A stretch of DNA of 62,484 bases from a bacterium (lineage in GTDB: Bacteria; Patescibacteriota; Minisyncoccia; Phycocordibacterales; UBA2100), in contig JAUSJH010000018.1 in NCBI GenBank assembly GCA_030647655.1, positions 1 through 62,484 on the forward strand. The letters are read 5' to 3'. Both the position numbers and the translations under genes were made by a program. Every line of letters starts with the position of its first letter. Position 1 is the first letter of the stretch. This document shows positions 23,293 through 62,484 of the stretch, piece by piece. The notes beneath the pieces are model-generated. The model had not been told where the DNA came from. It searched no databases and worked only from the letters and a program-made list of their open reading frames with translations.

Positions 23293-23305
23293 GAAGGGAA
23301 TGAAA

Positions 23306-23817: not shown

Positions 23818-23899
23818 ACCCTAAAGTGTACCACAACCCCAAATATCAAGGCAACGAAAACCCCAGCGAACCTTCGGTACACAAGTCAGACTTGTGTAT

Positions 23900-24505: not shown

Positions 24506-24533
24506 TGTACGGATTGTCTGAAACATACGTATG

Positions 24534-41318: not shown

Positions 41319-42307
41319 GCACTCTTCCGCGACACTACTTTCTTCACTGCTTCCACAATGTGGGAGACACCCATACCGTAGTGCTCTATCAATTCTTTTG
41401 GTGTGCCGGATTGGCCGAATTTGTCGTGCACGCCGACAAACTCGATTGGTGTGGGACATACCTCTGCGAGTAATTCAGCGATTGCGCCTCCCAAACCTCC
41501 CATTATCTGGTGTTCTTCGACGGTAACAACGGCACCCGCGCCACGCGCAAGCGAGTGGATTATCTCGCGGTCGAGTGGTTTTATTGTGTGCACATTGGTG
41601 ACCGAAACCGCGATGCCTATTTCTTCTAACTCCCGCGCCGCGAGAAGTGCTTGGTAGAGGAGGTGCCCTGTCGCGAAAATCGCGACGACAGGAGAGTCGG
41701 ATTTCCACACGACATTCGCCTTCCCTATTTCAAATGGTGTCTCGGCTGTTGTCATGATCGGCGTCTTGTCGCGTCCGAAGCGCATGTAGCCGGGCTTGCC
41801 GGCCTTAGCGAGCGCGAGCGTTGCCTTGCGCCCCTCTTCAGAGTCGCACGGAGAAATAACTATCATATTCGGAAGCGCGCGCATGAGCGCGATGTCCTCA
41901 AGCGCTTGGTGTGTGGCGCCATCGGGCCCGACAGAGACCCCCGCATGCATGCCGCAGACCACGACTGGCACATTGTTGAGACAAATAGTCGTCCGTATCT
42001 GCTCCCAATTCCTCCCCGGAGAGAACGTCGCGTACGAGGTGATGAAGGGGAGCTTGCCGTAATTGGCCATGCCCGCGGCGACCGTCGCCATATTCTGTTC
42101 GGCAACACCCACCTGCACAAAACGCTCCGGAAATGCTTTTTGGAAATGGTGCGCCTGCGTTGATTCTGCAAGGTCAGCCGTCAAGACGACGACTCGCTCA
42201 TCTAGTTTCCCCGCTTCAACGACACCCTTGCCAAACCCCTCGCGTGTCGAGGCCATGTCGGGTTTATCGAAAATATTAGCGGCAAGTTTTGCTTCTGGAT
42301 TGATCAT
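41315..42307 (-). CDS. transketolase C-terminal (pyrimidine-binding) subunit
   Basis: LTADLAEST, VGVAEQNM, VGPDGATHQALED, VTVEEH, GQSG. Confidence 0.93.
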   Translation of the reverse strand: MINPEAKLAANIFDKPDMASTREGFGKGVVEAGKLDERVVVLTADLAESTQAHHFQKAFPERFVQVGVAEQNMATVAAGMANYGKLPFITSYATFSPGRNWEQIRTTICLNNVPVVVCGMHAGVSVGPDGATHQALEDIALMRALPNMIVISPCDSEEGRKATLALAKAGKPGYMRFGRDKTPIMTTAETPFEIGKANVVWKSDSPVVAIFATGHLLYQALLAARELEEIGIAVSVTNVHTIKPLDREIIHSLARGAGAVVTVEEHQIMGGLGGAIAELLAEVCPTPIEFVGVHDKFGQSGTPKELIEHYGMGVSHIVEAVKKVVSRKSA

Positions 42308-45300
42308 ATATATGATAGCGAGTGTCTTAAGGTATTCATGAGCCAAGTGAAAAATCTCTCTACAATGCCGGGTGAGGAGGCGGTGGCGAGGTTGGAGGAG
42401 GAGTTCGTATCGGAAGTCACGGCTACCGGAAGCGCAGCGACGTAATCAACTGCAATATTGGGACGCACGTCGCTTGCGGAGGCACCGGCGCGGCAGACGC
42501 GGACGTAACGCGCAGGGCTCGCCGAAATGTTCGCGAAATTTTGTGTGCGTTTAGCCGCCGAGAATACAAGCGTGCCGAGCGTTGTCCAGTTTATTTTGTC
42601 GGTACTTGCGAATACATTGCCTCCGGAATTTGTGCCGCAATAGGTTCCGGTGCAAGAGTCGCCGCAGATAGAATCGGGTGTCCAGTAGTCTACGCGCAGA
42701 TTGGAAAAAGACCGCACTGAGCCAAAATCTATATCAATGCATGAAGTGACGGCGTGCGCATCGACGATGTAGGCGATCTGGCCGTCTCTAAATGAGAGAC
42801 CGGCGGGTTGTGAGTCATCTGTCCTTGCACTCGAAACAGAACAGTAATTCGGCACGGTCGCCGCCGTTGCCCCCGGAGGTATAACGCCCGTAACGATGCC
42901 GGTAATCCATTGAGAAGCTCCCGTGACAGCACACGATGCAAATTGGTATGCCCTGGAGAGTACTCCATTGGTGCAGACGCGACTTTGAGAAACGCACTGT
43001 GCTCCGGCAGGGACAGATGATGTTTGGTATGCGGTCACCGATGCACCATTCGCAACGGTGCTGCCGTTGAAGGTACATGATGCACCGGGGCTGGTATTGG
43101 AAACGGTAACGGAGACTGCCGCGGACGTTCTTGTGTTCCCCGCCGCATCGCGCGCGACTGCGGTGATCGAATGTGACCCGTTCGAGACTGTAGTGGTGTT
43201 CCATGATGTTGAGTACGAAGACGCCGTGCCTGTTGTGTCTTCTGCACCGACATTCGTACCATCAACCTTGAACTGCACGCCTGCAACTGCGATGTTGTCA
43301 GAGGCTGTGGCGGTGATGTTCACTGTGCCCGAGACGGTTCCTGTGGCAGGTGCGGTGAGAGAGACTGTGGGTGCGGTGGTGTCGGACGAGCCGCCGGTGA
43401 GAGGAATTTCTACCTCGACTACTGTTGGAATACCAATCGAGCCGTCTGCAACTTTATGATTTTTGTCTCTGACCTCTTGAAGGAAAAGGATCTTCCCATT
43501 CACGAGAGCCGCGCCGCTCTTCGCTTTCATCGTGAATACTTGATTGTAGGAATATTCAGTACGCGAATACCCAGTTAGGGAAAACGTGCGGACATTCCAT
43601 GTGTTCCCGCCATCCATACTCGTCGCTATCTTTCCTCCGCCGAGCACGTCGATACGCGAGCCGTTGACCACGATATTGTGCTGGGACCCGACTATTCCGG
43701 GGATCGGCGCACCTCTGCTCCACGCACCAGTAGTTTTGTTGATTGTATAGAGATACACAGGAACCCCGGTTGCTTCTGTTCGCGCTCCCACAAGATAAAG
43801 CGTGTTTTGCCCATCAAAATCCATATCTTCTTGATGAAACTGCGTGTCATTCGCTCGATTTCCCAACTCTACTGCGCTCACTTTGTTAGACGCATAGTTG
43901 CTCAAGAGTACGAGTTTGTTCTTTTCGCGCTGCGCATTATTTTCTGCGCCCGGATACAAGAACGCACCTGCCACAATCAAGAGTTTATCGCCCCATGCAT
44001 ACATGTTGGGATAAATATACAGAAGGCCCGGTTCATTCAATACCACGTACGGGCCACCCCAAACGCCGTTGCGGTAGGCCCCGCAGCGAAAGTTTTGCAC
44101 TCCGGTACCGTTCGAACTCCTGTCGTACCCGCAGGTGTACAGCGTATCGGAGTCAGCCGCATATGCGACGCCAAGATATCCGATATATCTGCCCTGCGGC
44201 CAACCCGACATATCAACACTGATAGGTGCCGAGAGCGTACCGCTCGAGGCCCTCGTGAATTTGTAATGGACCATCTGATTCACGCTAGCGCCCCCCTCCG
44301 TCGCATATATGAGATGAAGCGTGCCATTCTTATCGACGACAAGGCTCGGCGGCTGGTGCGCGTTGTGCGCAGGAATGTGCTTCGCGAGCGTCCAGCCCGC
44401 CGTAGGGTTATTCTCGTCAAACTTGTAGATGTCAACGGGAAAACCGACTCTCTCATTAGTGCCCACTGTCCTGTTCATGGGGATTTGCAACGTCGCGTAG
44501 CGATAGCGCCCGACACGGATGTACTTCGAACTATGACGCCCCCAGAGAGTTTCGAACTCCGCGTTTGGATCCGGGCCAATCACGCGCCGCGCTGAGTATG
44601 TGCTAGTCGTTGGTGCATCCACGGAGCACGACGCATATTGATACGAGGTATTTCCTGAGAGTACGCCATTGGTACAAGTGCGCTGGACGCTTGAGCACGT
44701 TTGTCCATACGGTACGGAAGGCGTGTTGTAAAACGCTCGCGACTGTCCGCTCGGGACCTCCACATCATCCAACGTGCAGGAGGCGGCCGGCGCGTTCGAC
44801 ACCATCAGATCCCTTGCCTTGCTCGTACCCCCAACGGTCGTGACGGTAAGGCTATAGGTGGCCGGAGGAATGTCGGAGGGAACAGTGAAGCTGATGGTGG
44901 TGCCGTCAGAAGAGGGTGCCGGTATGGCGGTGCTCTGTGCGCCGAAGAACGTATCCCAAATGAGCGCGACGGCGGCGGCGAGGATGCCATTGGGCTTCTT
45001 GGTGAGGCGGACGGTATTGCTTGGGGCGAAGTTGGCACCGGTGATTATCTCCTGTGCTCCTTGTGCAACCGGATTCGGAGACAGGCCGGAGATAGTAGGA
45101 AGAGGCAGGCTCGGGGTGCACGTGGAGAACGCGTAGGTTCCCGTGAGAGTGCCGTTTCCGCAAACACGTGACTGCGATGCACACGTTTGTCCCACGGGGA
45201 CAGACGCGGTTTGATGCGCGGTCACACTTGCACCGTGCGCGACAGTTTGTCCATTGAACGTACAGGAGAGAGGTGCGGCCGTGGAGCAGGTACGGTACTG

Positions 45301-46740
45301 GTGGGTGGTCGGTGCAGAGAGGACTCCGTTGGCACAGGTGCGTGTTTGTGCGATGGATGAACAAACTTGGCCGAAGGCGACGGTGCGTGCGGAGTACGCG
45401 GTCACGAAGGAACCGTGGGAGACGGTGGTGCCGTCGAGGGTGCAGGAAGAAGGTTGACCCGGAGTGCATGTGGCGTTTTGGTATGTTCCCGACAGCACTC
45501 CATTAGTACAGAGTCTTGACTGTGAGATGCAGGTTTGGTCGAAGGGTACGGAGGCACTCTGGTATGCGGTGATGGAGTTTCCGTTCAATACCTGTGCTCC
45601 GTTGAAAGTACAGCTGGTGGGTTGTCCCGGCGTGCAGGCGGAGTATGCGTATGTGCCGGAGAGAGAGCCGTTCGTACACGTGCGGGTTTCAGAGGTGCAG
45701 GTATTGCCGACGGGGACGGAGGAGGATTGATAGAAGGTGTGGGAAGAGGCGTGCGGGATTGAGACGCCGTTTTGTGTGCAAGAGGCGGGTTCTCCTGTTG
45801 TGCAGGAGGTGTATATATTGAGGGAGCTTCCGGTGAGGACTCCGTCGGAGCAAGTACGGGACTGCGCGTACGTGGCACATTGTTCGCCGAAGGGAGCGTT
45901 GGTGCGGGAATACAGCGTCTGGGATGCGCCGTGTGAGAACGTGACACTGCCGAGTGTGCAGGAGCGAGGTGGTGGGGGTGGAGGGCTTCCTCCACCTCCG
46001 CCTCCTCCGCCGCCTCCACCTCCTCCTCCACCGCCTCCACCTCCGGTACTTCCTCCACCAGTTGTTCCTCCTGTTCCAGTACCAGTTCCTGTTCCACCTC
46101 CGGCGGCTGCTCTCGTTGCAATGAACGTTCTCGTCCTCGGACCCACTGCTCCGTATCCTGTTGTGTTTGGTGAGCCTGTAGAGACGATGCCGCTCTGCAC
46201 TTGGAATCGTTGTACGGCGGCTTCGGTGAGAGCGCCGAAGAAGCCCGTGGCGGAGTCGGTAGAGAGAAAGCCTTCTGCGATGAGAATGTGCTGGAGGATG
46301 ATGACGTCTTCTCCGGTACTTCCTTTGGATAGAGTGCGGGTGATGGCAGAGGTTGTTGGAGTTGGTGTGGGAGTTGGAGTAGGAGTGGCAACTGTTCCTC
46401 CGCAGGAGAGGGTGATGGCGGCACGGGTCCTTGGTCCCACTGCTCCGTATCCTGTGGTTGAGGGTGTGCCGCTGGAGACGAGGGAGTGAGATGCCTGCCA
46501 CTGCTTGACCACCGCTTCGGTGGTGGGGCCGAAGTATCCGGTCACGGAGTCTTGGGTGAAGTCTGCGTATTCTTGTGTGAAGAAGGTCTGGAGGGCTTTG
46601 ACATCGTTGCCCGAGACACCGCGCGATAGAGTGCGGGTGAATGTGGGGCAGGTGGAGGCGTGGGAAAAGAGAGGCATCGCGAGGAAGAGCCCCGTGAAGA
46701 TTACGAGAACGATGTGACGAGTTAGTGTCATGTTGATCAT
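42304..46740 (-). CDS. giant modular surface protein (2x peptidoglycan-binding domain, poly-Gly/Pro linker, 7x four-Cys repeat, IPT/TIG-like, BNR/Asp-box propeller, Ig-like, Cys-rich discoidin-like domain)
   Basis: LSRGVSGNDVKALQ...TGYFGPTTEAVVKQWQ x2; SCTxNG...C...RxCxNGxL...Y..C repeats; SMDGGNTW; DTTAPTVSLTAP...VAGVQFKVDG. Confidence 0.85.
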   Translation of the reverse strand: MINMTLTRHIVLVIFTGLFLAMPLFSHASTCPTFTRTLSRGVSGNDVKALQTFFTQEYADFTQDSVTGYFGPTTEAVVKQWQASHSLVSSGTPSTTGYGAVGPRTRAAITLSCGGTVATPTPTPTPTPTTSAITRTLSKGSTGEDVIILQHILIAEGFLSTDSATGFFGALTEAAVQRFQVQSGIVSTGSPNTTGYGAVGPRTRTFIATRAAAGGGTGTGTGTGGTTGGGSTGGGGGGGGGGGGGGGGGGGSPPPPPPRSCTLGSVTFSHGASQTLYSRTNAPFGEQCATYAQSRTCSDGVLTGSSLNIYTSCTTGEPASCTQNGVSIPHASSHTFYQSSSVPVGNTCTSETRTCTNGSLSGTYAYSACTPGQPTSCTFNGAQVLNGNSITAYQSASVPFDQTCISQSRLCTNGVLSGTYQNATCTPGQPSSCTLDGTTVSHGSFVTAYSARTVAFGQVCSSIAQTRTCANGVLSAPTTHQYRTCSTAAPLSCTFNGQTVAHGASVTAHQTASVPVGQTCASQSRVCGNGTLTGTYAFSTCTPSLPLPTISGLSPNPVAQGAQEIITGANFAPSNTVRLTKKPNGILAAAVALIWDTFFGAQSTAIPAPSSDGTTISFTVPSDIPPATYSLTVTTVGGTSKARDLMVSNAPAASCTLDDVEVPSGQSRAFYNTPSVPYGQTCSSVQRTCTNGVLSGNTSYQYASCSVDAPTTSTYSARRVIGPDPNAEFETLWGRHSSKYIRVGRYRYATLQIPMNRTVGTNERVGFPVDIYKFDENNPTAGWTLAKHIPAHNAHQPPSLVVDKNGTLHLIYATEGGASVNQMVHYKFTRASSGTLSAPISVDMSGWPQGRYIGYLGVAYAADSDTLYTCGYDRSSNGTGVQNFRCGAYRNGVWGGPYVVLNEPGLLYIYPNMYAWGDKLLIVAGAFLYPGAENNAQREKNKLVLLSNYASNKVSAVELGNRANDTQFHQEDMDFDGQNTLYLVGARTEATGVPVYLYTINKTTGAWSRGAPIPGIVGSQHNIVVNGSRIDVLGGGKIATSMDGGNTWNVRTFSLTGYSRTEYSYNQVFTMKAKSGAALVNGKILFLQEVRDKNHKVADGSIGIPTVVEVEIPLTGGSSDTTAPTVSLTAPATGTVSGTVNITATASDNIAVAGVQFKVDGTNVGAEDTTGTASSYSTSWNTTTVSNGSHSITAVARDAAGNTRTSAAVSVTVSNTSPGASCTFNGSTVANGASVTAYQTSSVPAGAQCVSQSRVCTNGVLSRAYQFASCAVTGASQWITGIVTGVIPPGATAATVPNYCSVSSARTDDSQPAGLSFRDGQIAYIVDAHAVTSCIDIDFGSVRSFSNLRVDYWTPDSICGDSCTGTYCGTNSGGNVFASTDKINWTTLGTLVFSAAKRTQNFANISASPARYVRVCRAGASASDVRPNIAVDYVAALPVAVTSDTNSSSNLATASSPGIVERFFTWLMNTLRHSLSYI

Positions 46741-52134: not shown

Positions 52135-54552
52135 TCAAGTGTGCCTTATGTTCATAATGAGATTCGCGAGCCACACAAAGAATCTCTCTACGAGGCCAGG
52201 TGAGGAGGCGGAGGCGAGACTGTCTTTGGGCTCCGATCTATCGGACGCACTCTCACTTGCAGTAGAAAGCACATCACCCAAAGGCATCTCAACTTCCAGA
52301 ATTGCCTGCCTTCCAGTGGTAAGATTTCGCACATTTTCCAAAAGCAGTATCCTGTCGTCGGGCAGAGCCGCACCGCTCTTTGTTTTCATGATGTGTGTAC
52401 GCACATATGCATAGTCGTTGAGCGGATATCCGGCTATTGTGTACGGACTCACCGACCACGTAGTTCCGGCATCTATGCTCACCGCATGTTGGCCATTCCC
52501 AATCACGTCAATCCGCGCACCGTGGACAATAAGATTGTGCCCCGCTTCATTCGTTTGGGCGCCGAAGCCGGCAATGGGAAGCCATATCTTCTTCCGAAAT
52601 CCCGTAGCAGTATCGATCACAAAGAGGTAGTTGGCATTGGTTGCAAGAGCCGTCCCCAGAAGGTAGAGGGTGTGTTGGCCGTCAAAATCTATATCTTCTT
52701 CAAAGAATTGCGTGCTGTTGCTTATGTTTCCGAGCGTCGCTTTGGAGTCAACGTGCGACCCATATCCACTCACCAGAATAAAGCGGTTGAGCTGACGTAT
52801 ATCGTAGTCGGCTTGGTCCATATGAAGACCGGAAGCAATCCGTAACTTATCACCCGATGCATACAGATTGGGGTACAAGAGCCGACCGCCCACTTCTTTT
52901 GAGATTTCGTAGGCCTGACTCCAGGCTCCACTGCGGTACGCTCCACAGCGAAAGATGTCCGATATATGATCGGTCGCACAGAAGTAGATGGTATCGGAGT
53001 CTACAGCATATGCCACACCGTGGTAGGCAAAATAAAAATTCCCTAGTAACGAATTGAAGGGCGAGGTATTAATAATCTGTGGTGAAGAGAGCGTGCCTGT
53101 CGAGGCCCCGGTAAATTTGAGGTGCGCCAGTTTGCCATTAGCATCATCGTAGAGTATGTTAAGTGCGCCATTGTTATCCAAAATCAACGATGGTGGCTGA
53201 TGTGCGTCTTTGCTCGGTTGCATCCACGCGAGTTGCCATCCGCTGCCCGGAGCATTCTCATCAAAACGGTAAATAGCAGCTGGTATCGGAAGTGTTGTTA
53301 AGTCGTTCTGAAGTACCGCGTAGCGGTAATGCCCTACACGCACATATTTTGGGCTGTGGCGGCCCCACATCAGCGTGAGTTGGGAGAGCGCGTCTGTAAT
53401 AATAGGGCGGGGCGTATACTCCTGCGCGGCGGCGACGGTACATTGAGCGAAGCGATATTGAAGCTCGCCCGACAACACTCCGTTGGTACACGTTCTCGTC
53501 TGGACATACGAAGAGCAGAGCGCGGGAGGTGCCACGATGGATGTAGAATAGAATGTGGCCGATTGTCCGGACAAAATCTCTACGCCATTGAGTATGCAAG
53601 GAGCTTGTGTGTTCAGTACATTTGCGGTACGTGCTGCAGATACTTTGATATTTCCCGACGCGTCAGTAGCGATGGCGACCACCGTATGCGGCCCGTCTGC
53701 GACACGAGTTGTGTCCCATGAGGCTGAATATGGAATTGTGGTATCTCTATCGCCTACACTCGCATTGTCGACTTTGAATTGCACGCCCGCCACACCTTTT
53801 TCGTCGGAAGCCGTTGCGGATAGTACGATTGCGCCCGATATAATTTGATTATTCGCCGGAGTGTAGAGGGAGACAGAGGGAGGAGTCGTGTCGGGAAACA
53901 CTGTATTCCCCGCCAAAAAGTCAACCGCAATACCTCCCCGGACAAAGCTTGCGGCTGCACCCGCGCGGCACACCCGGGCGTAGCGTAGAGGCATTGTTGA
54001 GACTTTCGCATAATTCACCGTGCGCTCAATCGTCGAATATGGCAGGGAGCCGAGTAGTGTCCACGTCGCCTTGTCTCTGCTCACTAATATGTAGCCTCCC
54101 GGGTTGGTTCCGCAATAGTTTCCGGTACACGAGTTGCCGCAGATGGAATTCGGCATCCAATAATCCACGCGCAGAGAGGAGAAAGACCGCACCGAGCCGA
54201 AATCCATGTCAATGCATGAAGTAACGGCGTAGCTGCCTACTCTGTATGCAATATTCCCTTTGCGGTAAGAAAGTCCTGCAGGAAGCGAGTCATCAGTTTT
54301 GAGTCTGGCGATTGAGCAGTAGTTCGGCGTAGTCGTTGCGGAAACTCCCGGCGGTATGACGCCAGAAACCGCGCCCGTAATCCACGCCGGTGCAACCGCC
54401 AACGCCTCTGTGGCCGCCGTTGCCACATCTGGTGCCAACATTTCTTCGGCGACCGCCAGATTGTTGCCCTGAAATAAGGCAGACGAAACAATAAGTAGAA
54501 GAACGAGACCGAGAAGGATCAGGAGTGGGTATACTCTCGGACGAAGGGTCAT
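52135..54552 (-). CDS. modular surface protein (Cys-rich discoidin-like, Ig-like, four-Cys repeat, BNR propeller)
   Basis: Same domains as 42304-46740 in different order; RPRVYPLL signal-anchor; shared C-terminal SSPGLVERFFxWL motif. Confidence 0.85.
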   Translation of the reverse strand: MTLRPRVYPLLILLGLVLLLIVSSALFQGNNLAVAEEMLAPDVATAATEALAVAPAWITGAVSGVIPPGVSATTTPNYCSIARLKTDDSLPAGLSYRKGNIAYRVGSYAVTSCIDMDFGSVRSFSSLRVDYWMPNSICGNSCTGNYCGTNPGGYILVSRDKATWTLLGSLPYSTIERTVNYAKVSTMPLRYARVCRAGAAASFVRGGIAVDFLAGNTVFPDTTPPSVSLYTPANNQIISGAIVLSATASDEKGVAGVQFKVDNASVGDRDTTIPYSASWDTTRVADGPHTVVAIATDASGNIKVSAARTANVLNTQAPCILNGVEILSGQSATFYSTSIVAPPALCSSYVQTRTCTNGVLSGELQYRFAQCTVAAAQEYTPRPIITDALSQLTLMWGRHSPKYVRVGHYRYAVLQNDLTTLPIPAAIYRFDENAPGSGWQLAWMQPSKDAHQPPSLILDNNGALNILYDDANGKLAHLKFTGASTGTLSSPQIINTSPFNSLLGNFYFAYHGVAYAVDSDTIYFCATDHISDIFRCGAYRSGAWSQAYEISKEVGGRLLYPNLYASGDKLRIASGLHMDQADYDIRQLNRFILVSGYGSHVDSKATLGNISNSTQFFEEDIDFDGQHTLYLLGTALATNANYLFVIDTATGFRKKIWLPIAGFGAQTNEAGHNLIVHGARIDVIGNGQHAVSIDAGTTWSVSPYTIAGYPLNDYAYVRTHIMKTKSGAALPDDRILLLENVRNLTTGRQAILEVEMPLGDVLSTASESASDRSEPKDSLASASSPGLVERFFVWLANLIMNIRHT

Positions 54553-54581
54553 ACAGGCACTCTATTGTACTACGGGATACG

Positions 54582-54680
54582 TCATGGTTGCGGTGCTTCT
54601 GCGGTTGGTGCTGGAGGCGGTTCTAGTGTAGCTTCGACGCTTTCGGTCGGGGTCCCGACCTCTTCGACCCCCACAACAGA
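54582..54680 (-). pseudogene. 3' remnant of a Pro-rich gene ending ...EAPQP*
   Basis: tcatggttgcggtgcttctgc identical at 54582-54602 and 58257-58277; no upstream ATG in frame. Confidence 0.5.
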
Positions 54681-54827
54681 CCTATTCGGCGATGTATTTC
54701 GTAACTATCCGAAGACCATTTCTACGTACTTAAAAGATATTGAGCTCTCACCCGTGAGGCCTTACCTCTTCGAGTAGGGATATCTGGATTTACGAAATCC
54801 AGATTTTGTGCTCACATGTACATCTTA

Positions 54828-56891
54828 TTACCTAGCGAGCACGTAATCAACAGCGGCGTTGCTAATCGCAGCGCTACCCCCGCCTCTGCAGACGCGCACA
54901 TAGCGGAAGGGCGTGGGCGATGTGGCCGTGTTGCTTGTGAGCGTGAGCGATGGGGCCAGGCTTGTGAGGCGACTCCATGCAGAGGTGGCGCGGCTCGTGC
55001 TCGTGAACACATGCAGTGACGGATAGGTACTGCAATACGTCCCCGAGCACGAGTCTCCGCAGATAGTTTTGAGCATACGGTATCCGATCTTCGCCTCCGT
55101 ATACTGGGTACTACCAAAGTCAATGTCAAAGCAGGCGGTTACGCCCAGCCCCGCAATGGTTGAATATCCACCGGTGGCCTGTGCGAGCCCTGCCACTTGC
55201 CCGTTCTCGGTCCGTGCATTTCCGATTGTGCACGCGATACCGGCAAGCCCAGAGACCGGAAGTATGGTGCCGCTCTGCCATTGCGCTACTGGTGCGGGGG
55301 GAAACACCGCTCCTGCTCCATTTCCAACAATTGTATTAATTGAAGATACTGTATTACTTGTAGCATATGCGCCTGTGCCTGCGATTTCTACGCCATAGCG
55401 TGGATTGAACTTGATGATATTCGCGCTACTTGCATCGCCATCTTTACCCACGGAATTATTCAAAGCGTCTTTAATATAAATGCCATCCCTTGCGTTCCGA
55501 ATTGCAATTTGACCGGTAACATCAGTGCCAATCTTGTTGCCGATAATGTTATTGTCGTGCGCTATCCAATTGAGGGGGTTTGTGGTCAGAGGGTCTGTAT
55601 TCGCGGCTGCCCCCGCAGGGTCGCCACGTATCCAGATACCGTCATTTGTATTTCCCGATATGAGATTGCCCTGTATCGTTGCCGTTTGAGCTTCAAAAAT
55701 AATTATCCCCCACGTGCCGTTCCCCAACGGGCCCGTACCGGACGCATTTGTCCCGATATAGTTTCCTACCACAAGATTGTCGTGACTAAAGCCCTTGTGG
55801 CCGAAGTGGGGCTCCGGAGTGGTTGGCGTCGGTGGCGAGCCGTCAAGATTGATGCCGTGCCGGTTGTTACCGGAAATAACGTTGCGGGCAAGCGGGTTAT
55901 ACCCGCCAATCTGGTTGTTCGGGCTATTGTGCAGAAGAATTCCCGTACGGATGTTCGGTATTTTGTACGACCCGGTGATATCCGTGCCTACATAATTCCC
56001 CTGGACGACGTGCCCGCTGGATTTGTCTCCTGCAATATTAATGCCGTATACGCCATTTCCTGAAATAATATTTCGATACTGCACTCCCGGGCCGCCAATG
56101 GTATTTTTGTCCGACTGACGAATAGAAATCCCGTTCCCGTTCCCAGTGCCGTTAGCGCCATTGCCAACGGCTGCTGTGCCAGCCGCATTGGTCCCTATCA
56201 GGTTGTTCAAAATCCAATTTCCCGTGGAGCCCTCCGGAATACTTATCCCGTTTTCTCCATTCCCGGAAATGACGTTCCTCTCCTGCGGGAGCGGCCCGCC
56301 GATTTGGTTGCGTGACGACGTGCTAACAAGAATGCCATTCCCTTTATTTGCACTTGCCGCCAAGCCGTCTGCACGAGTGCCGATATAGTTTCCTATGATT
56401 TTATTTGAGCCTCCTCCATTTAAATTGATTCCGTCTCCCGTAAAATTCTGAATCACGAGTCCTTGCACAGTGCTACCGCCCGCCTTTATCGTAAGGCCTG
56501 TGCTAGTGCTTGCGCCCATACATGAACCGTTGAGAATGATAAGCGGGGTGCCGGCATATCCGCTTTGCGTGGTACCGTCAATATGCACCGGTTTGGTGAT
56601 GTCCGGCAACGGAGAGGTGGGGCAAATCCGTTTTGAACTGGTGCTGATATTAAAGACAATCCGCCTTGTACCGCTTGCAAGCGCATTTGATTGCAAGATA
56701 GCCTCCCGCAAAGAGCCGGGACCGGAATCGTCCGTAGTCGTGACATATTGGATTCCGGCTGTGACCGCAGCGGCGGATTGAGACGAACTCATACGACCAC
56801 CAATAGTAGGGGCGAATGAAATAAGAAACAGAACAAAGAGAAGAAAGCCGAGAAGAGTCAGGAGTGGGTATACTCTCGGACGAGGGGTCAT
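54828..56891 (-). CDS. surface protein with CSLREA-type N-domain, parallel beta-helix repeats and C-terminal Cys-rich discoidin-like domain
   Basis: DDSGPGSLREAILQSN; repeated GNYIGT..G...NxISGN..GI rungs; ICGDSCSGTYC. Confidence 0.85.
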   Translation of the reverse strand: MTPRPRVYPLLTLLGFLLFVLFLISFAPTIGGRMSSSQSAAAVTAGIQYVTTTDDSGPGSLREAILQSNALASGTRRIVFNISTSSKRICPTSPLPDITKPVHIDGTTQSGYAGTPLIILNGSCMGASTSTGLTIKAGGSTVQGLVIQNFTGDGINLNGGGSNKIIGNYIGTRADGLAASANKGNGILVSTSSRNQIGGPLPQERNVISGNGENGISIPEGSTGNWILNNLIGTNAAGTAAVGNGANGTGNGNGISIRQSDKNTIGGPGVQYRNIISGNGVYGINIAGDKSSGHVVQGNYVGTDITGSYKIPNIRTGILLHNSPNNQIGGYNPLARNVISGNNRHGINLDGSPPTPTTPEPHFGHKGFSHDNLVVGNYIGTNASGTGPLGNGTWGIIIFEAQTATIQGNLISGNTNDGIWIRGDPAGAAANTDPLTTNPLNWIAHDNNIIGNKIGTDVTGQIAIRNARDGIYIKDALNNSVGKDGDASSANIIKFNPRYGVEIAGTGAYATSNTVSSINTIVGNGAGAVFPPAPVAQWQSGTILPVSGLAGIACTIGNARTENGQVAGLAQATGGYSTIAGLGVTACFDIDFGSTQYTEAKIGYRMLKTICGDSCSGTYCSTYPSLHVFTSTSRATSAWSRLTSLAPSLTLTSNTATSPTPFRYVRVCRGGGSAAISNAAVDYVLAR

Positions 56892-56915
56892 ATACGCATT
56901 CCATTGTACTACGAG
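56770..56915. repeat. 146-bp promoter+signal-anchor cassette, copy 1
   Basis: 144/146 identical to 58106-58251; partial third copy at 54509-54574. Confidence 0.92.
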
Positions 56916-56925
56916 GTATTTCATT

Positions 56926-58227
56926 TTATGGGGCGCTTGAAAGTTGCTTTACCATATCGTCGCTTGGGATGTTTTTGCTGAACGCAAATTCTTGAAGGTA
57001 GCAATTACATATAGGGCCCCCGTGTCCGTAGGAACCGCCCAGTACGGCAACTCTCAAAATTGGTGGCCACGTATTGGCGTGCTCGTTGATGCGAACATCG
57101 CTACCGTCGAGGGCGACGACCGCGCGCAGGCCGGTGGCATTCATGGCTCCGACGAACGTATGCTGACCCTTGACGAACGGGCGCAGTGGGTCGAAGCCTT
57201 GGGCGTTGTTGTCCCCGTTCATAGCGGTCATGCCGTAGTGTGCAGTAATCGGGTTCCCGTTGAAGGAGACGCGGTGATAATCGTCGTCCTTGGCCGTGTG
57301 CAATGACAGCATGGTGATGCTATGTACGTCTTGGTTTGAGTAGAACTTGACCAGCACACTGCCATTCGGGACCGGAAAGTGAGCGCCAAGGGGGACCAAC
57401 GCCATCGTGACGTGGTCTTGCTCGCGCGTCACGGGCGTCGCCCCGACCTCCATTGGTGAGGTCTTAAAGGCACCGTTCTCGTTGAGCACGAAGTCAACGC
57501 CGAACTCATCGCCCCTTGTCTCAACTTTGAAGCCGACCTTCGGATTGGCGAGCGTCCGCGACGGAATATCCTTCCACGCCCACCGGCTGTTGGGGGGTGT
57601 TATATCTGTCCAGTGCGCGCCGCCGTCCATTGTCATAAACAGCTGTCCGGTACCGGTGCCGATTCTCCTAACGAAAGCGGACTGCGAGCGAACTGACGAC
57701 GGCAACGTAATCTTTTGCAAGACCGTGGCGTTATTTGCCGTCGCCTTGATACGCGATGCCGAGTGGGCAATGCCGTCCACACCGGCAATACCGCGCGTGA
57801 CGAGCATATTGGTGCGGACCCATACCGATGCCGTCAAGTCCCGATTGTAAAGTGCAACGAACGTGCGGACGCCCTCAATGAGCGCACCGCGATCTGACCG
57901 TCGCAGAGTGTTCGGCGGAACTTTCTTCCAAACGCCAGCAGTATTATCAATCCAGGCAGATGATGCGCGTTGTGTTTTAATGCCGAGTGCACCGATCGTC
58001 GTCGGGCCGTTGAGATAGGCGCGGTTGTTAGCGAAGTCGACATCCATAAACATGCTGGGGGTGGGCCATGCTTGTGCGCCGAGGATAACTGGCACCACGA
58101 CAGCGGCGGCGGATTGAGACGAACTCATACGACCACCAATAGTAGGGGCGAATGAAATAAGAAACAGAACAAAGAGAAGAAAGCCGAGAAGAATCAGGAG
58201 TGGGTATACTCTCGGACGATGGGTCAT
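56926..58227 (-). CDS. surface protein with phage head-spike/tail-fibre-like carbohydrate-binding modules
   Basis: QRASSAWID..G...RRSDRGALIEGVRT and ENGAFKTSP...TPVTREQD resemble TRASxA...GLLIEGxRTN and EAGAFATSYIP...VTRAAD motifs of phage structural proteins. Confidence 0.65.
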   Translation of the reverse strand: MTHRPRVYPLLILLGFLLFVLFLISFAPTIGGRMSSSQSAAAVVVPVILGAQAWPTPSMFMDVDFANNRAYLNGPTTIGALGIKTQRASSAWIDNTAGVWKKVPPNTLRRSDRGALIEGVRTFVALYNRDLTASVWVRTNMLVTRGIAGVDGIAHSASRIKATANNATVLQKITLPSSVRSQSAFVRRIGTGTGQLFMTMDGGAHWTDITPPNSRWAWKDIPSRTLANPKVGFKVETRGDEFGVDFVLNENGAFKTSPMEVGATPVTREQDHVTMALVPLGAHFPVPNGSVLVKFYSNQDVHSITMLSLHTAKDDDYHRVSFNGNPITAHYGMTAMNGDNNAQGFDPLRPFVKGQHTFVGAMNATGLRAVVALDGSDVRINEHANTWPPILRVAVLGGSYGHGGPICNCYLQEFAFSKNIPSDDMVKQLSSAP

Positions 58228-58251
58228 ATACGCATTCCATTGTACTACGAG
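58106..58251. repeat. 146-bp promoter+signal-anchor cassette, copy 2
   Basis: See copy 1. Confidence 0.92.
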
Positions 58252-58323
58252 ATGCATCATGGTTGCGGTGCTTCTGCCGGCGGTGGTAGCTCTAGTGCAG
58301 GAGCGGGTGACGGAGATGGTTGG

Positions 58324-58539
58324 CTAGTCCTTGAAAATATAGTTACAGGAAAGCCTTGTATCGCGCATTATTTTCCGAAGTAATCCTGGACCTATCACGT
58401 CATGTAACGGCACAGTTGTCGGCGACAGTGTCGGATGTTTGAGCCGAACATGGCTACCTGTTGTGCGAACTTGAACATATCCGACTCGTTCAAGTCGCTT
58501 GATAATCTGCGCACCCGATATGCGCGGAATATGCGGCAT
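58324..58539 (-). CDS. hicA: HicA-family toxin
   Basis: ISGAQIIKRLERVGY.QVRTTGSHVRLKH...TTVPLH...GLLRKI. Confidence 0.88.
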   Translation of the reverse strand: MPHIPRISGAQIIKRLERVGYVQVRTTGSHVRLKHPTLSPTTVPLHDVIGPGLLRKIMRDTRLSCNYIFKD

Positions 58540-58542
58540 ATA

Positions 58543-58773
58543 CTAAACAGTAATGACGTGTACGCTCACGCTTGACGCAGTCCCAGCAACATCTTCCGTC
58601 TTCTGCTCCGCAAGGCACGCCTCCGTCGCTTCGCGCACGTTCAGAAGTGCCTCCTCCATGTTTTTGCCTTGACTATAGCAACCAGGGATTGCGGGATTCG
58701 TAGCAACAAAGAAGCCCCCATCGTCTTTCTCAACGATGATTGGAAATGATTGTGTGCTACGGATTCCTTTCAT
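58543..58773 (-). CDS. hicB: HicB-family antitoxin (short, no DNA-binding domain)
   Basis: IIVEKDDGGFFV..PAIPGCYSQGKNMEEALLNVREA. Confidence 0.88.
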   Translation of the reverse strand: MKGIRSTQSFPIIVEKDDGGFFVATNPAIPGCYSQGKNMEEALLNVREATEACLAEQKTEDVAGTASSVSVHVITV

Positions 58774-58826
58774 GATGGCAGTATACCCCCGCGAGATAAT
58801 AGTTTCAATGCACCACATTATATACG

Positions 58827-61800
58827 CTACGGGGTGGTTGAGATCGCGCTTCCAGTATCGGTGCCGCTCCCCCCATCAGCGGGCGGGGTTTCGGATGGCG
58901 GAGGTGTAGGAGCAGGAGCAGGAGCGAGCTCTGGTTGTGGCGCTGGTTCAGGTGCGGGCGTTGGCTCCGGTGCAGGAGTCGGAACGGGGGCTGGCACTGG
59001 TTCCGGGGAAGGTTCTGGTGCAGGCGACGGCTCTGGCGCAGGGGTGGGGGCCGGAGCGGGCTCTGGTGTTGGAGCGGGTGCGGGTGAAGGTTCAGGAGCC
59101 GGAGCCGGCGCAGGTGGGGTTGATGTCGCGTCCGTAGGAGGAGGAGTGCTTCCGCCGGCACCTCCGGCACCGCCCGTGTCTCCGGCCTGCGGCGGCGCGC
59201 TCTGCGCGCCGCCGCTCCCACCGCTTCCGCTTCCCACATTCCCCGAGTTGCTACCCGCCCCTGCCGCAAGCAATGAATCGAGTTGTACCTTGGTGATGCA
59301 GGTCTCCCCGCCTTCGCCCGAGACGCAAAGCTTGTCGGTGTGCACTTCTTTGGCGAAGACTTTCTCAAAGATGCCGGTCGCGGCGTAGAGCGCTTCTTTA
59401 AACGCGCGAATCACTATGTCGCCGAGACCGGAAATCGCGCTCTTCAGTCCATCCGACGCATCAGTAAATGATGCGTACCACGGCGTCGACGATGCAAATT
59501 GCTCTCTCGGCGTCGTGGTCGCGCTCACCAATTCCCCCGCCGATGTCGTCGCAAGAAGCGGCTGGACCTCTAGATTGAGTTCTTGTATCGCCTTTATAGT
59601 CGGAGAAACAAGGGCCTGATATTGAATCCCCCACGGGTCTACATGCGGGTCCGCGCCGCCAACGTGGACGAACTGGGGAAAGACATCGTAAAGTTCTTGA
59701 GCGATAAGGCCTGTCTTCCGGCCCTCCTCCCCTTCGAAGTTGAAGTCAACAACGTGGATATTCATAAGATTGGCGAGCGAGGAGGAAGTATTCGTAATAT
59801 CGGATTTCAAGCGGACGTCCGAGGGGATAACACATCCACCAGTTGTTGCACCGCGAAGAGAGCCGTTGGAATCTACGATACACACACCTCGATTTCCATT
59901 GTTATCAGCCGAAAGACCGGAAAAGGCCACTGGGCCAGTTGCCGTAAGATTGAGCATACCTGTGATTGAACCGACACTATTTATGGTAAGCGCTCCGCCT
60001 CCAAAAGTTGCAACACCGGTATTGGAGATCGACCAGTCAGTGCTGCCATCGCTAATCGTATTGCTGAAATTAGCTGCGGTCGCAATAATTGTGCCGGTAA
60101 AGGTGGGAGAAGCCGAAAGCACCATGTTGCCCGTTCCCGTAACCGCGTTGGAAAGTGTAACGCCGCCGTATTGTAAGGTGCCATTCGTACCTCCTGCCGT
60201 AGACGCGCCGATAACTACATTTCCACCGACTGAGAAAAGTTTTGATGGTGATGTCGTCCCGATGCCGACGTTGCCGGAAGAGTCAATGCGCATGGCTTCG
60301 GCAGGGCCGCTCCCTGTTCTGAAAACAATGTCTCCTGTTGTAGTCCCATTGTCAAAATAGAAGTCTGGGTCGGATTTCTTGCCGCCCAAAATGCGCATCC
60401 CGACCGCGCCGAGCTCACCGTTAAAGATAAGGGAATTATAGCCGTTGGAAGTGCCAATTATTTGTAAGTCCGTTTCAGCTCCAGTTGATACTACAAATTT
60501 CGATCCCGGTGTTGTGGAGCCAATCCCGACGTTGCCGCCATTCGCAATCGTGAGATACGTCGAGGTGGCATAGACATCGGTTGACGTACCGATTTGGAGA
60601 CTCCCGAGGACCGAGCGGAACGTCCAGTGTTTTGCGTTTACCCCCGCAAGGGTGTCGGTCAAGGTGAGCTGGCCGCGGAAGGTTGAATCTGCGCTCGTGG
60701 TGGCGAATTGTGCGGGCCAGTAGGGAGAGGTGGTGCCGACACCGATGCGATTTGCTCCGTTGAGGAAGATGCCGAAGACATCATTTGTCGAAGATGCCCA
60801 CTTGGAATTGGGGCCAGCTCCTCCACCGTCATCAACTTCGCATCCGAAGTTACCCGCTGTCCACGTCAGCACATTGTTTGACGAACAGTCTATAAGACCG
60901 TCGGCAAAGAAGTCAGAAGTGGAAGCGACACCGGAAACAGTGAGCGCGGTGGATGAGGCATACGGGAATCTGTTGGCGACGAGCCCTGTGGAGTAGAACG
61001 TGAGAGCTGTGGGAGTGGTCGTTGCGCGAAGCGAGCCACCTGCATCAATCCACGGCAAGACACTTGCAAGTCCGGCACTCGAGAAAATTGCGTTTCCTGT
61101 GATTGTCATGTTGGTCGTCGTGGCGTCTGTCGAGCTCGCGTTGACCATTCTCAAATTGGTAATCGTCGAAGTGCCGGAGTTCACGATGATGCCGCCTGTG
61201 AACGAGAGACGGGTCGAGGTGGCGTCAGATGGGAAGGGCCATGAGTAGCCATTCTTGTTGTTGAAGGTCGTCCAGTCGGTGGAGGAGAGACAGCCCGCGG
61301 CGCTTCCGCTTCCGACGGTGCAGTCGACGGCCAAAGCGCCGCCCACCGCAGAGCGTCCCGCCGTGACCGTGATGCCGTTCGTACCCGAGACGGTTCCTGT
61401 CGCGACAGAGGAGAGATTGCCCGTGCCGTTGCCGTATATGAGTTGGGAGGAGGTGAAGGTGTCGACACCGGTACCACCCTTTGCAACAGCGAGAGTGCCC
61501 GTGATATTCGCAAGTGTCGTCGTTGCGACCCACGAAGACGCTCCGTCGATGAAGGTGAGGACGTATCCGGGAGTGCCGACGCCGAAGAATGTTGACGTGG
61601 CGATGGAGCGGGCGTCCCCCGTTGAACCGGTCTGGTTGCCGAGGATGCTCGCGGCGGCGACTTGGGCGAGATTGGCAAACGGAAGGTCGCCCGTGACGTC
61701 GAGGGTGAGGTCAACCGTGGCACAGGTCGCCGCACCTGCTCCGTTGAGACTTCTGACAAATTGATTGGTGCAGGAGGCACCGGCGTATTCGGATAGCGTT

Positions 61801-62484
61801 CCTCCTGCGTCGGCAAGCGGAATGGCGGAGGTAATCCCTTGAAGGATGGTGGTTCCTGTGATTGTCATGTTTGTCGTCGTGGCGTCCGTTGCAGAAAAGC
61901 GTGAGCTGTTCAAGAGTCCTGTGGTAGTGGCGTTGACCGACTTCAATGAAGTCGTTTCAAGAAAGCCTGTTGTCGTCGCGTTGGTAGCGTACAGAGAGGT
62001 GGCGAAGAAGCTCGTCGTGGTTGCGTCGGTGCCGTATATGCGGGTGAACTTGGCGTCGGTTCCTTCGAGTTTGAAGATAGTCGAGCTCGCGGTGGTGGAG
62101 GTGGCGTTGAAGTACGGAGCGGCAATCTTTGTCCACACTTCGAGTCCTGCGGCAAAGGTGGAGGTGGCGGTGGATTCAACGGCGATTGGGACGGTCGAGG
62201 TGGGACGTATCGCCTGCACACCGAAGAGGTTGGAAAACTGACTCCATGATTCTCCGAATCCTCCGATACAGGTGCCATTGAGTGACCAGCATCCTGCCGT
62301 CAGATTCACTCCGTTCCCGAAACTGGAGGTCGCGGTACTCGATACATACAGGGCTTTGGAAAGTGTGGTGGAGGCGTTGGTGAGGGTCAAGATGGTGGAA
62401 GTAGAATTCAGGGCATCAGAGGTGGTGCCGATGGAGAAGACTCCCGAGGCGGAGGTGAGGTTCCAGTGCTTCAGGTTCACGCCT
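58827..62484 (-). CDS. giant Thr-rich tail-fibre-like surface protein with peptidase S74 (intramolecular chaperone) domain; partial, 5' end beyond window
   Basis: ATST/NATTT repeats, GNVGIGTTSP repeats, PSDVRLKSDI...GLIAQEL...IQYQAL..PTIKAIQEL, Pro-Ala-Glu-Thr tail; frame open at right edge. Confidence 0.88.
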   Translation of the reverse strand, partial: GVNLKHWNLTSASGVFSIGTTSDALNSTSTILTLTNASTTLSKALYVSSTATSSFGNGVNLTAGCWSLNGTCIGGFGESWSQFSNLFGVQAIRPTSTVPIAVESTATSTFAAGLEVWTKIAAPYFNATSTTASSTIFKLEGTDAKFTRIYGTDATTTSFFATSLYATNATTTGFLETTSLKSVNATTTGLLNSSRFSATDATTTNMTITGTTILQGITSAIPLADAGGTLSEYAGASCTNQFVRSLNGAGAATCATVDLTLDVTGDLPFANLAQVAAASILGNQTGSTGDARSIATSTFFGVGTPGYVLTFIDGASSWVATTTLANITGTLAVAKGGTGVDTFTSSQLIYGNGTGNLSSVATGTVSGTNGITVTAGRSAVGGALAVDCTVGSGSAAGCLSSTDWTTFNNKNGYSWPFPSDATSTRLSFTGGIIVNSGTSTITNLRMVNASSTDATTTNMTITGNAIFSSAGLASVLPWIDAGGSLRATTTPTALTFYSTGLVANRFPYASSTALTVSGVASTSDFFADGLIDCSSNNVLTWTAGNFGCEVDDGGGAGPNSKWASSTNDVFGIFLNGANRIGVGTTSPYWPAQFATTSADSTFRGQLTLTDTLAGVNAKHWTFRSVLGSLQIGTSTDVYATSTYLTIANGGNVGIGSTTPGSKFVVSTGAETDLQIIGTSNGYNSLIFNGELGAVGMRILGGKKSDPDFYFDNGTTTGDIVFRTGSGPAEAMRIDSSGNVGIGTTSPSKLFSVGGNVVIGASTAGGTNGTLQYGGVTLSNAVTGTGNMVLSASPTFTGTIIATAANFSNTISDGSTDWSISNTGVATFGGGALTINSVGSITGMLNLTATGPVAFSGLSADNNGNRGVCIVDSNGSLRGATTGGCVIPSDVRLKSDITNTSSSLANLMNIHVVDFNFEGEEGRKTGLIAQELYDVFPQFVHVGGADPHVDPWGIQYQALVSPTIKAIQELNLEVQPLLATTSAGELVSATTTPREQFASSTPWYASFTDASDGLKSAISGLGDIVIRAFKEALYAATGIFEKVFAKEVHTDKLCVSGEGGETCITKVQLDSLLAAGAGSNSGNVGSGSGGSGGAQSAPPQAGDTGGAGGAGGSTPPPTDATSTPPAPAPAPEPSPAPAPTPEPAPAPTPAPEPSPAPEPSPEPVPAPVPTPAPEPTPAPEPAPQPELAPAPAPTPPPSETPPADGGSGTDTGSAISTTP

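What the first reader, a model, noticed from the sequence alone, without database searches (positions are those of the whole stretch)
54509..58277. Duplicated promoter + signal-anchor cassette grafted onto unrelated passenger domains
A 146-bp block (-10 TACAAT, ATG, RPRVYPLL..TM..SSSQSAAAV) is 144/146 identical in front of two otherwise unrelated genes (beta-helix versus phage-spike-like). A diverged third copy heads the discoidin/propeller gene. Identity stops exactly where the passenger begins. A 21-bp tail of a lost Pro-rich gene (...EAPQP*) precedes two of the copies. This looks like an export/expression leader used as a recombination handle for swapping adhesin payloads, a possible antigenic or host-range variation system.
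Basis: partly seen in the sequence, partly recalled or inferred. Interest (0 to 1): 0.75.

Follow-up and report, generated by a model that had tools for sequence, protein, structure and literature searches.

The report
Shared promoter-and-anchor head on three genes
Three neighbouring surface-protein genes of an uncultured ultra-small (Kaiserbacteria-like) groundwater bacterium begin with the same short block (promoter box, start codon, membrane anchor) joined to unrelated sugar-binding or adhesin-like bodies; this looks like a scar of gene insertion and duplication, not an active switching system.

Summary
On the minus strand, genes A (56926-58227), B (54828-56891) and C (52135-54552) start with the same head: TACAAT, 11 nt, ATG, MTxRPRVYPLL, a hydrophobic helix and a Ser/Ala linker.

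- **Identity.** The A and B heads are 144/146 identical (162 nt at 95%). C is a diverged third copy. Beyond the head the proteins are unrelated.
- **Promoter.** TACAAT is plausible: promoter-box-like hexamers lie just upstream of start codons in 7 of 26 other genes here (p about 5e-5).
- **Rarity.** DNA-pattern scans of two contig collections, a word search of 5.8 billion protein clusters and a profile search of 1.84 billion representatives found the head nowhere else.
- **No switching machinery.** The contig has no recombinase or reverse transcriptase, all copies are direct, each heads an intact gene, and one sample shows no alternative junctions.
- **Context.** In four relatives an IS200-like transposase gene lies upstream of GAPDH. 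Here only its last ~37 codons survive, between B and C.
- **Similar scars.** This contig and a relative carry other insertions flanked by duplicated gene ends or heads.

Best reading: the heads were duplicated during insertion events, with gene conversion possible, which gave each body its own promoter and export anchor. The closest analogue is Borrelia erp. Interest is modest.

The parts
58106..58251 (-). Head copy 1 (gene A): the 146-bp near-identical block. It holds the -10-like TACAAT (58239-58244), the ATG (58225-58227), MTHRPRVYPLL, a hydrophobic helix and the SSSQSAA linker. The extended homology is 58099-58260.
56770..56915 (-). Head copy 2 (gene B), 144/146 identical to copy 1. TACAAT is at 56903-56908 and the ATG at 56889-56891. 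The extended homology is 56763-56924. It starts 1 nt after the stop codon of gene A.
54500..54610 (-). Head copy 3 (gene C), diverged: 86% identical to copy 1 over 111 nt, including the Pro-rich tail. TACAAT is at 54564-54569 and the ATG at 54550-54552. The upstream ATG frame is closed by a TAG.
56926..58227 (-). Gene A (433 aa from the conserved ATG): signal anchor followed by tandem jelly-roll, CBM-like lectin domains. Its relatives include a prophage-region protein.
54828..56891 (-). Gene B (687 aa): signal anchor, a right-handed beta-helix, and a C-terminal Cys-rich CBM32/discoidin-like domain.
52135..54552 (-). Gene C (805 aa): signal anchor or signal peptide, the Cys-rich CBM32-like domain, a Big_7 Ig domain, and an unassigned beta-rich region.
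58257..58323 (-). Pro-rich tail remnant 1 (QPSPSPAPALELPPPAEAPQP*). It begins one base after the hicA stop codon, and its TGA overlaps the upstream ATG of gene A. It resembles the Pro-rich region of the big gene (79% over 33 nt).
54582..54630 (-). Pro-rich tail remnant 2 (..TLEPPPAPTAEAPQP*) ahead of gene C. Its last 21 nt are 19/21 identical to remnant 1.
58324..58818 (-). The hicB-hicA toxin-antitoxin pair, lying between the big gene and tail remnant 1.
58827..62483 (-). Large tail-fibre-like surface protein (Peptidase_S74 chaperone domain, Pro-rich tail). It runs off the end of the contig.
54664..54777 (+). Remnant of an IS200-like Y1 transposase gene: its last ~37 codons. Relatives have the full gene at this position upstream of GAPDH.
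54635..54667 (.). Palindromic element at the junction between the transposase remnant and tail remnant 2. It is multi-copy in the sample, seen as loose-ended contigs.
54782..54804 (.). Hairpin with a 10-bp stem directly after the stop codon of gene B.

Best explanation
The repeated block is a compact gene head: a -10 promoter box placed for a very short 5' leader, the start codon, a positively charged N-terminus (RPR), a membrane helix of about 20 residues, and a Ser/Ala linker.

What it does (inferred). It directs Sec-type insertion with the N-terminus inside and the body outside. Each of three unrelated glycan-binding or adhesin-like bodies is therefore transcribed on its own and displayed on the cell surface. 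The cell is an episymbiont-type CPR (Candidate Phyla Radiation, ultra-small) bacterium.

How it came to be repeated (inferred). The heads were copied as by-products of DNA insertion and recombination in a variable surface-protein island between a tail-fibre-like gene and GAPDH.
- An older event duplicated the unit [Pro-rich gene tail + ATGA + head]. It now sits ahead of A and C at about 86-88% identity.
- A recent event produced the A/B pair at 98.6% identity. Most likely the body of A was inserted just behind the head of the B gene with a target duplication of about 150-160 bp. This fused A in frame to one copy and left B with the other.
- Gene conversion between the two tandem copies may also keep them alike.

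Identity stops at the body because homology ends there. The arrangement is an evolutionary product, not a programmed switch.
For: Shown:
- Exact repeat geometry. The body of A is bounded on both sides by the block, and the B copy starts 1-10 nt after the stop codon of A.
- The helix scores 2.6-2.8 on Kyte-Doolittle over 19 residues. RPR precedes it, and there is no Cys and no other hydrophobic segment. AlphaFold gives a helix at 8-25 and then a disordered linker.
- TAnn[AT]T hexamers lie within -18..-5 of start codons in 7 of 26 other genes against a 3.9% background (p=4.5e-5), and SD motifs are rare.
- The nearest homologue of A has another N-terminus.
- GC3 of A's body is 0.68, like core genes. 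B, C and D are 0.55-0.56.
- The same Cys-rich domain sits at different positions in three proteins, which shows module shuffling.
- Four relatives (L006, L009, L010, L049) carry a match to the transposase-remnant peptide; in L006, L009 and L010 this is a Y1 transposase gene (Pfam) upstream of GAPDH. Here only its 3' end survives, between B and C.
- Other insertions are flanked by duplicated gene ends or heads: a toxin-antitoxin pair plus a copied C-terminus at 23206-23900, and in relative L061 a toxin-antitoxin pair between two copies of the tktC head (77 nt, 87%).
- Insertion with long target duplication, with repeats of 46-423 bp and mostly in naturally competent bacteria, is documented (PMC2853133).

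Inferred: the order of events, the duplication mechanism, and the export function.
Against: - No genome with an empty site (head-B without A) could be found, so insertion with target duplication is not demonstrated.
- Six of the 8 mismatches in the 162-nt homology lie in its terminal 16 nt. That pattern fits a gene-conversion tract inside an older duplication at least as well.
- No -35 element accompanies TACAAT. B starts 1 nt after A, so co-transcription is equally possible.
- Signal-peptidase cleavage (AAA|V in A and B; AVA|E in C) cannot be excluded, so 'anchor' could be 'cleaved signal peptide'.
- The transposase remnant between B and C shows the history is more complex than one mechanism.
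Confidence: 0.6

Rival explanations
1. Concerted evolution only. The three heads are old paralogues from one ancestral gene whose bodies were replaced long ago. The 144/146 identity of A and B is a recent gene-conversion tract between tandem copies, with no recent insertion.
For: Mismatches cluster at the two ends of the 162-nt homology: 2 in the central 146, 2 in the 7 nt downstream and 4 in the 9 nt upstream. The AAAV codons beyond the block differ only synonymously. Tandem direct repeats are classic substrates for conversion.
Against: An earlier event is still needed to place the head on unrelated bodies. The flanking 'older homology' is only 7 and 9 nt and includes a start codon, so it is weak evidence. 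A differs from B, C and D in GC3, and its nearest homologue has another N-terminus. Both points suggest A arrived separately.
Confidence: 0.25
2. The head is a dedicated recombination handle of an active system that swaps adhesin payloads behind one expression and export leader, giving antigenic or host-range variation. It would be analogous to mycoplasma vsp/vpma or to orphan toxin-tip modules.
For: A conserved 5' region plus signal sequence on unrelated surface proteins is the hallmark of such systems (PMC2268961). The 34-nt core around the ATG is invariant in all three copies apart from one position in codon 3. The genes are surface or adhesin-like.
Against: The contig has no recombinase or reverse transcriptase. 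All copies are in direct orientation, so recombination would delete rather than switch. Each copy has its own -10 box and ATG, and there are no silent cassettes. No further copies exist in about 15 billion proteins or in two contig collections. Contigs of the one sample show no alternative junction, and depth is even: 24 for A against 26 and 19 for the flanks.
Confidence: 0.1
3. Assembly artefact, or a 1336-bp circle. The repeat caused a mis-join: the body of A with one head copy is really a separate circular or amplified molecule, or the repeat is a collapsed or chimeric join.
For: In the k=31 contig graph the body of A connects to the block at both ends. A circle plus an A-less chromosome would therefore give the same graph.
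Against: An independent assembly (Logan) reproduces every flank with zero differences. Depths are equal across A and its flanks. The longest exact repeat is 87 nt, and two copy-specific differences allow phasing with ordinary reads. The graph admits only one linear path at single copy.
Confidence: 0.04

Closest known systems
Borrelia burgdorferi erp (ospE/ospF/elp) genes with the 'upstream homology box'
   Same: A single promoter, leader and localisation sequence is joined to many unrelated sequences that encode the external part of surface proteins, with recombination inferred as the cause (PMC10016077).
   Different: The Borrelia leaders are lipoprotein signals on multi-copy cp32 prophage plasmids, with a conserved operator and many alleles. 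Here there are three chromosomal tandem genes and a non-lipoprotein signal anchor (no Cys). There is no known regulator and no other copy in public data.
Mycoplasma vsp / vpma (and vlp, vsa) variable lipoprotein loci
   Same: The 5' untranslated region and the signal-peptide coding region are conserved across clustered surface-protein genes that otherwise differ (PMC2268961).
   Different: Those loci switch by Xer1-type site-specific inversion, with an adjacent recombinase, one active promoter and genes in both orientations. None of these features is present here.
Insertion with long target duplication (Nobusato/Furuta/Kobayashi; restriction-modification gene units)
   Same: An inserted gene is flanked by long (46-423 bp), nearly identical direct repeats of a sequence otherwise unique in the genome. 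The insert has no mobility gene, and the host is likely naturally competent (PMC2853133).
   Different: The inserts described there are restriction-modification units, and the repeats are not used by the insert. Here the duplicated target is a gene head, and the insert is fused in frame to it and so gains a promoter and export signal. No empty-site genome is available to prove it.
Orphan toxin-tip modules of CDI and Rhs polymorphic toxin loci
   Same: A short conserved stretch next to variable modules provides homology for recombination that exchanges the variable part.
   Different: There the conserved handle precedes C-terminal tips, and orphans lack start signals. Here the shared part is N-terminal and each gene is complete.

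Membership tests
Sec-type N-terminal signal anchor / signal peptide | Positively charged n-region followed by an uninterrupted hydrophobic h-region | tested here: met
   MTxRPRV is followed by PLL(I/T)LLGFLLFVLFLISFA. The 19-residue Kyte-Doolittle mean is 2.56-2.83, and there is no other hydrophobic window in any of the three proteins. AlphaFold gives a helix at 8-25.
Sec-type N-terminal signal anchor / signal peptide | Signal peptidase I site (small residues at -3 and -1) 3-7 residues after the h-region | tested here: inconclusive
   A and B have AAA|V, but 13-15 residues after the helix. C has AVA|E about 8 residues after it. No SignalP-type predictor was available.
Bacterial lipoprotein signal (as in Borrelia erp and Mycoplasma vsp/vpma) | Lipobox with an invariant Cys at +1 | tested here: not met
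   There is no Cys in the first 60 residues of A, B or C.
Site-specific inversion / expression-site variation loci (vsp, vpma, vsa, shufflons) | A linked site-specific recombinase gene | tested here: not met
   Pfam scans of the locus and of the contig's other unassigned ORFs found none.
Site-specific inversion / expression-site variation loci (vsp, vpma, vsa, shufflons) | Inverted copies of the recombination site, and silent genes that lack a promoter | tested here: not met
   All three copies are direct repeats on one strand. Each carries TACAAT and an ATG.
Promoter/leader module shared by unrelated surface-protein genes (erp/UHB type) | Conserved promoter region plus leader, with unrelated mature parts | tested here: met
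   GTAGTACAAT and the ATG-to-LLG stretch are conserved in all three copies. The bodies are unrelated. Promoter activity itself was not tested.
Promoter/leader module shared by unrelated surface-protein genes (erp/UHB type) | A multi-member family across replicons or strains | tested here: not met
   Only the three copies on this contig were found by DNA pattern scans, the word-index protein search and the exhaustive profile search.
Insertion with long target duplication | Insert flanked by direct repeats over 30 bp with high identity, and no mobility gene in the insert | tested here: met
   The repeats are 144/146 identical (162 nt at 95%) and flank the 1.17-kb body of A. The insert encodes only that body.
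Insertion with long target duplication | A related genome with the empty site, where one copy of the repeat aligns to both flanks | not testable with these tools
   No other sequence with this head exists in the collections searched. Only one sequencing run holds the locus.
Diversity-generating retroelement target | A nearby reverse transcriptase and a template/variable repeat pair | tested here: not met
   No reverse transcriptase was found in the contig. The repeats are at N-terminal heads, not C-terminal variable regions.

The most novel reading that the evidence does not exclude
The head may act as a landing pad in a general, recombinase-free way of acquiring genes in naturally competent CPR bacteria. 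Incoming DNA would insert at gene boundaries with long target duplication. This would be the same process that left duplicated gene ends or heads around toxin-antitoxin pairs in this genome and in relative L061. When the duplicated target is a promoter-plus-anchor head, a promoter-less and leader-less foreign domain is at once expressed and displayed. That would give these reduced genomes a cheap route to new host-attachment proteins. Recombination between the direct repeats would then let the payload be lost or amplified at population level.
Probability: 0.15. Interest if true: 0.7.

Novelty: new member of a known kind. Interest (0 to 1): 0.35.

Why it matters
CPR/Patescibacteria live attached to other microbes, and how they acquire and vary their attachment proteins is largely unknown. 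This locus is a clean example of one promoter-plus-export head being reused for unrelated glycan-binding bodies in such a genome. The repeat geometry points to insertion with target duplication as the way domains get wired for expression and display. Combined with the duplicated gene ends around toxin-antitoxin pairs in the same lineage, it suggests a testable general mode of genome change. On present evidence it is a single, static, three-copy case, and the principle is already known from Borrelia and mycoplasmas.

Tried and rejected
- **DNA pattern for MTxRPRVYPLL.** The species-representative genomes gave one chance hit with no hydrophobic helix after it. JGI metagenome contigs gave none.
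- **Protein searches for the head.** The word-index search with residues 1-60 and the exhaustive profile search found only the window's own proteins.
- **Exact-protein look-up of A.** It is not on record.
- **Population test.** Only one run holds the locus, and only as k=31 contigs. These show no alternative junctions but cannot phase across the block.
- **Homologues of C.** The search was swamped by the Big_7 domain and gave no full-length orthologue.
- **RNA structure in the conserved head.** None was found; z-scores were -0.5 to +0.2.
- **Full sigma-70 promoter.** No -35 element was found at 16-19 nt spacing.
- **PDB sequence search for A and C.** Nothing was found.
- **Orthology of the big gene's C-terminus with relatives.** The match is too weak to claim.
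- **Repeats around the homologues of A.** L001 and L003 have none.
- **Rejected ideas.** A lipoprotein leader (no Cys), a DGR or shufflon (no RT or invertase), and a plain uninterrupted tandem duplication of A-B-C (an ancestral transposase fragment lies between B and C).
Full report
**Organism and setting.** The window is a whole 62,484-base contig. Its genes include rpoB/C, dnaE, gyrB, pheST, a split transketolase, a type IV pilin and a sortase. Earlier notes on the same genome call it Kaiserbacteria-like, and its gene content is consistent with that. Only one public run, a groundwater metagenome, holds the sequence.

**Checking the observation.** Three consecutive minus-strand genes share their 5' ends.
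- Gene A is 56926-58260, or 433 aa from the second ATG at 58227.
- Gene B is 54828-56924, or 687 aa from 56891.
- Gene C is 52135-54552, 805 aa.
- 56770-56915 and 58106-58251 differ at 2 of 146 positions. With looser ends the repeat is 162 nt at 95%.
- A 25-mer covering RPRVYPLL is exact in all three copies, with none expected by chance.
- Segment identities:

| Segment | A-B | A-C |
|---|---|---|
| 21 nt before the upstream ATG | 6/21 | 19/21 |
| Upstream ATG to conserved ATG | 28/32 | 25/32 |
| ATG to ..LLG | 48/50 | 44/50 |
| Rest of the head | identical up to ..SAAAV | 31/99 |

A therefore shares its upstream part with C and its downstream part with B, so the heads are mosaic. Beyond the head the proteins are unrelated.

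**What the block contains.**
- The conserved ATG is preceded at -17..-12 by TACAAT in all three copies.
- No -35 hexamer accompanies it.
- In 26 other genes of the contig, SD motifs are rare. A TAnn[AT]T hexamer lies within -18..-5 of the start in 7 of them, against 3.9% of random 14-nt windows (p=4.5e-5). Several are perfect TATAAT boxes at -12.
- Short-leader or leaderless transcription therefore looks normal in this genome, and TACAAT sits in the usual place.
- In gene C the upstream ATG frame is closed by a TAG, so the conserved ATG is the likely start. Gene callers chose the same start for A and B.
- The encoded head is MTxRPRVYPLL, then a helix of about 20 residues (Kyte-Doolittle mean 2.6-2.8), with no Cys. 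In A and B a Ser/Ala linker follows.
- AlphaFold models a helix at 8-25 and then a disordered stretch to about residue 55.
- This is a Sec-type signal anchor, or possibly a cleaved signal peptide. It is not a lipoprotein signal.
- No RNA structure is evident.

**The bodies.**
- A has no Pfam family and a weak PHROG tail-protein hit.
- A's homologues include a protein in a prophage-like region of a proteobacterial contig.
- A's closest homologue is 58% identical and carries a different N-terminal helix.
- A's model (pLDDT 81) is two jelly-roll domains resembling CBM40 and CBM22 modules.
- B is a right-handed beta-helix ending in a Cys-rich domain.
- That domain recurs at 38-44% identity near the N-terminus of C and near the C-terminus of a 1478-aa protein at 42304-46740. 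A low-confidence model of it consistently hits CBM32/discoidin folds.
- C adds a Big_7 domain.
- All three look like glycan-binding or adhesin-type surface proteins, and modules have clearly been shuffled among them.

**Is the head a family?** No other copy was found anywhere.
- A degenerate DNA pattern for MTxRPRVYPLL gave one chance hit in species-representative genomes and none in JGI metagenome contigs.
- A word-index search of 5.8 billion protein clusters with residues 1-60 returned only the window's own A and B.
- An exhaustive profile search of 1.84 billion representatives returned only B and C.
The rest of this genome was therefore covered only indirectly, through the protein collections.

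**Signs of a switching system.** None was found.
- The contig has no recombinase, invertase or reverse transcriptase.
- All copies are direct repeats.
- Each copy heads a complete gene.
- The independent Logan contigs of the one sample reproduce all flanks without differences and show no alternative junction or loose end at any head.
- Depths are even: 26.1 for B-C, 24.1 for A, and 19-23 upstream.
- These k=31 contigs cannot phase across the block. A 1336-bp circle plus an A-less chromosome is therefore not formally excluded.

**Context and history.**
- Directly after the hicA stop lies an open 21-codon Pro-rich remnant (QPSPSPAPALELPPPAEAPQP*). Its TGA overlaps the upstream ATG of A. It resembles the Pro-rich tail of the adjacent tail-fibre-like gene.
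- A similar remnant (..TLEPPPAPTAEAPQP*) precedes C.
- Loci from relatives were fetched through GAPDH. In L006, L009 and L010 an IS200-like Y1 transposase gene (Pfam Y1_Tnp) sits on the opposite strand directly upstream of GAPDH; L049 also matches the remnant peptide.
- In the window only the last ~37 codons of that transposase gene survive (54664-54777, + strand). They lie between the stop and hairpin of gene B and a palindromic element that abuts tail remnant 2.
- A-B and C-D therefore lie on either side of a fragment of ancestral DNA. The three genes did not arise by one uninterrupted tandem duplication.
- GC3 also separates A's body (0.68, like core genes) from B, C and D (0.55-0.56).
- The same contig has a toxin-antitoxin pair followed by a copy of the preceding gene's C-terminus (23206-23900).
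- In relative L061 a toxin-antitoxin pair sits between two copies of the first 77 nt of tktC at 87% identity.
- Such insertions, flanked by long duplicated target sequence and lacking mobility genes, are a described phenomenon, mostly in naturally competent bacteria (PMC2853133).

**Interpretation.** I read the heads as duplicated gene starts left by insertion and recombination events in a variable surface-protein island.
- The A/B pair is recent. The body of A is bounded on both sides by the block. The simplest account is insertion behind the head of B with a target duplication of about 150-160 bp, which fused A in frame to one copy.
- Gene conversion between tandem copies is the main alternative or an added process. 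The clustering of mismatches at the ends of the homology fits it.
- Either way, identity must stop where the bodies begin, because homology ends there.
- The functional outcome, which is inferred, is that each body has its own promoter box, start codon and membrane anchor.

**Comparison with known systems.**
- The nearest parallel is the Borrelia erp family. [quoted passage not shown]
- Mycoplasma vsp/vpma loci also share conserved 5' regions and signal peptides (PMC2268961). They switch through a linked recombinase and inversions, which are absent here.
- The present case differs in being a non-lipoprotein anchor, chromosomal, limited to three copies, and in a CPR bacterium.

**Verdict.** This is a new member of a known kind and of modest interest.

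Noticed in passing
window 54664-54777 (+); L006:9200-9898, L009:448-1119, L010:2145-2822: This is a 3' remnant (~37 codons) of an IS200-like Y1 transposase gene. In several relatives the intact gene sits on the opposite strand directly upstream of GAPDH. It marks the ancestral arrangement and shows that the surface-protein genes are later arrivals.
   Followed up: yes
window 54635-54667: A palindromic element (..GTCGGGACCCCGAC..) sits at the junction of the transposase remnant and the Pro-rich remnant. Several other contigs of the same sample match it and then run on into unrelated sequence, so it is a dispersed repeat. It may be REP-like and linked to the Y1 transposase.
   Followed up: partly
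window 23206-24547: The His-repeat protein gene (23900-24547) ends ..AHAVEVGRAVTFAR*. A toxin-antitoxin pair (23306-23817) follows, and then a fragment ending ..YAVEIGRAVTFAR*. This is an insertion flanked by a duplicated gene end.
   Followed up: partly
L061:8089-8935: In a related CPR contig, a toxin-antitoxin pair lies between two copies (77 nt, 87% identical) of the 5' head of the transketolase C-subunit gene. This is the same kind of scar, but with a gene start duplicated.
   Followed up: partly
window-wide, 5-18 nt upstream of start codons: Promoter-box-like TAnn[AT]T hexamers are strongly enriched just upstream of start codons, and Shine-Dalgarno motifs are rare. Examples are prfA at 37219 and the gene at 52052, both with TATAAT at -12. 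This suggests widespread leaderless or very short-leader mRNAs in this genome.
   Followed up: partly
window 42421-42873, 53893-54345, 54831-55247 (all minus strand): A Cys-rich domain of about 135 residues (CBM32/discoidin-like in a low-confidence model) is present in three surface proteins at different positions: C-terminal, N-terminal and C-terminal.
   Followed up: partly
window 60243-60300 and 60508-60540: Short stretches inside the tail-fibre-like gene (the ..SSGNVGIGTTSP.. motif region) attract very high contig depth (about 366 against about 25). They also produce many loose-ended contigs and joints from this and sister samples. The motif is shared almost exactly at DNA level by many other organisms or paralogues.
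   Followed up: no
window 58324-58818: A hicB-hicA toxin-antitoxin pair, with low GC3 (0.44-0.54), is wedged between the tail-fibre-like gene and the Pro-rich remnant that precedes gene A.
   Followed up: partly
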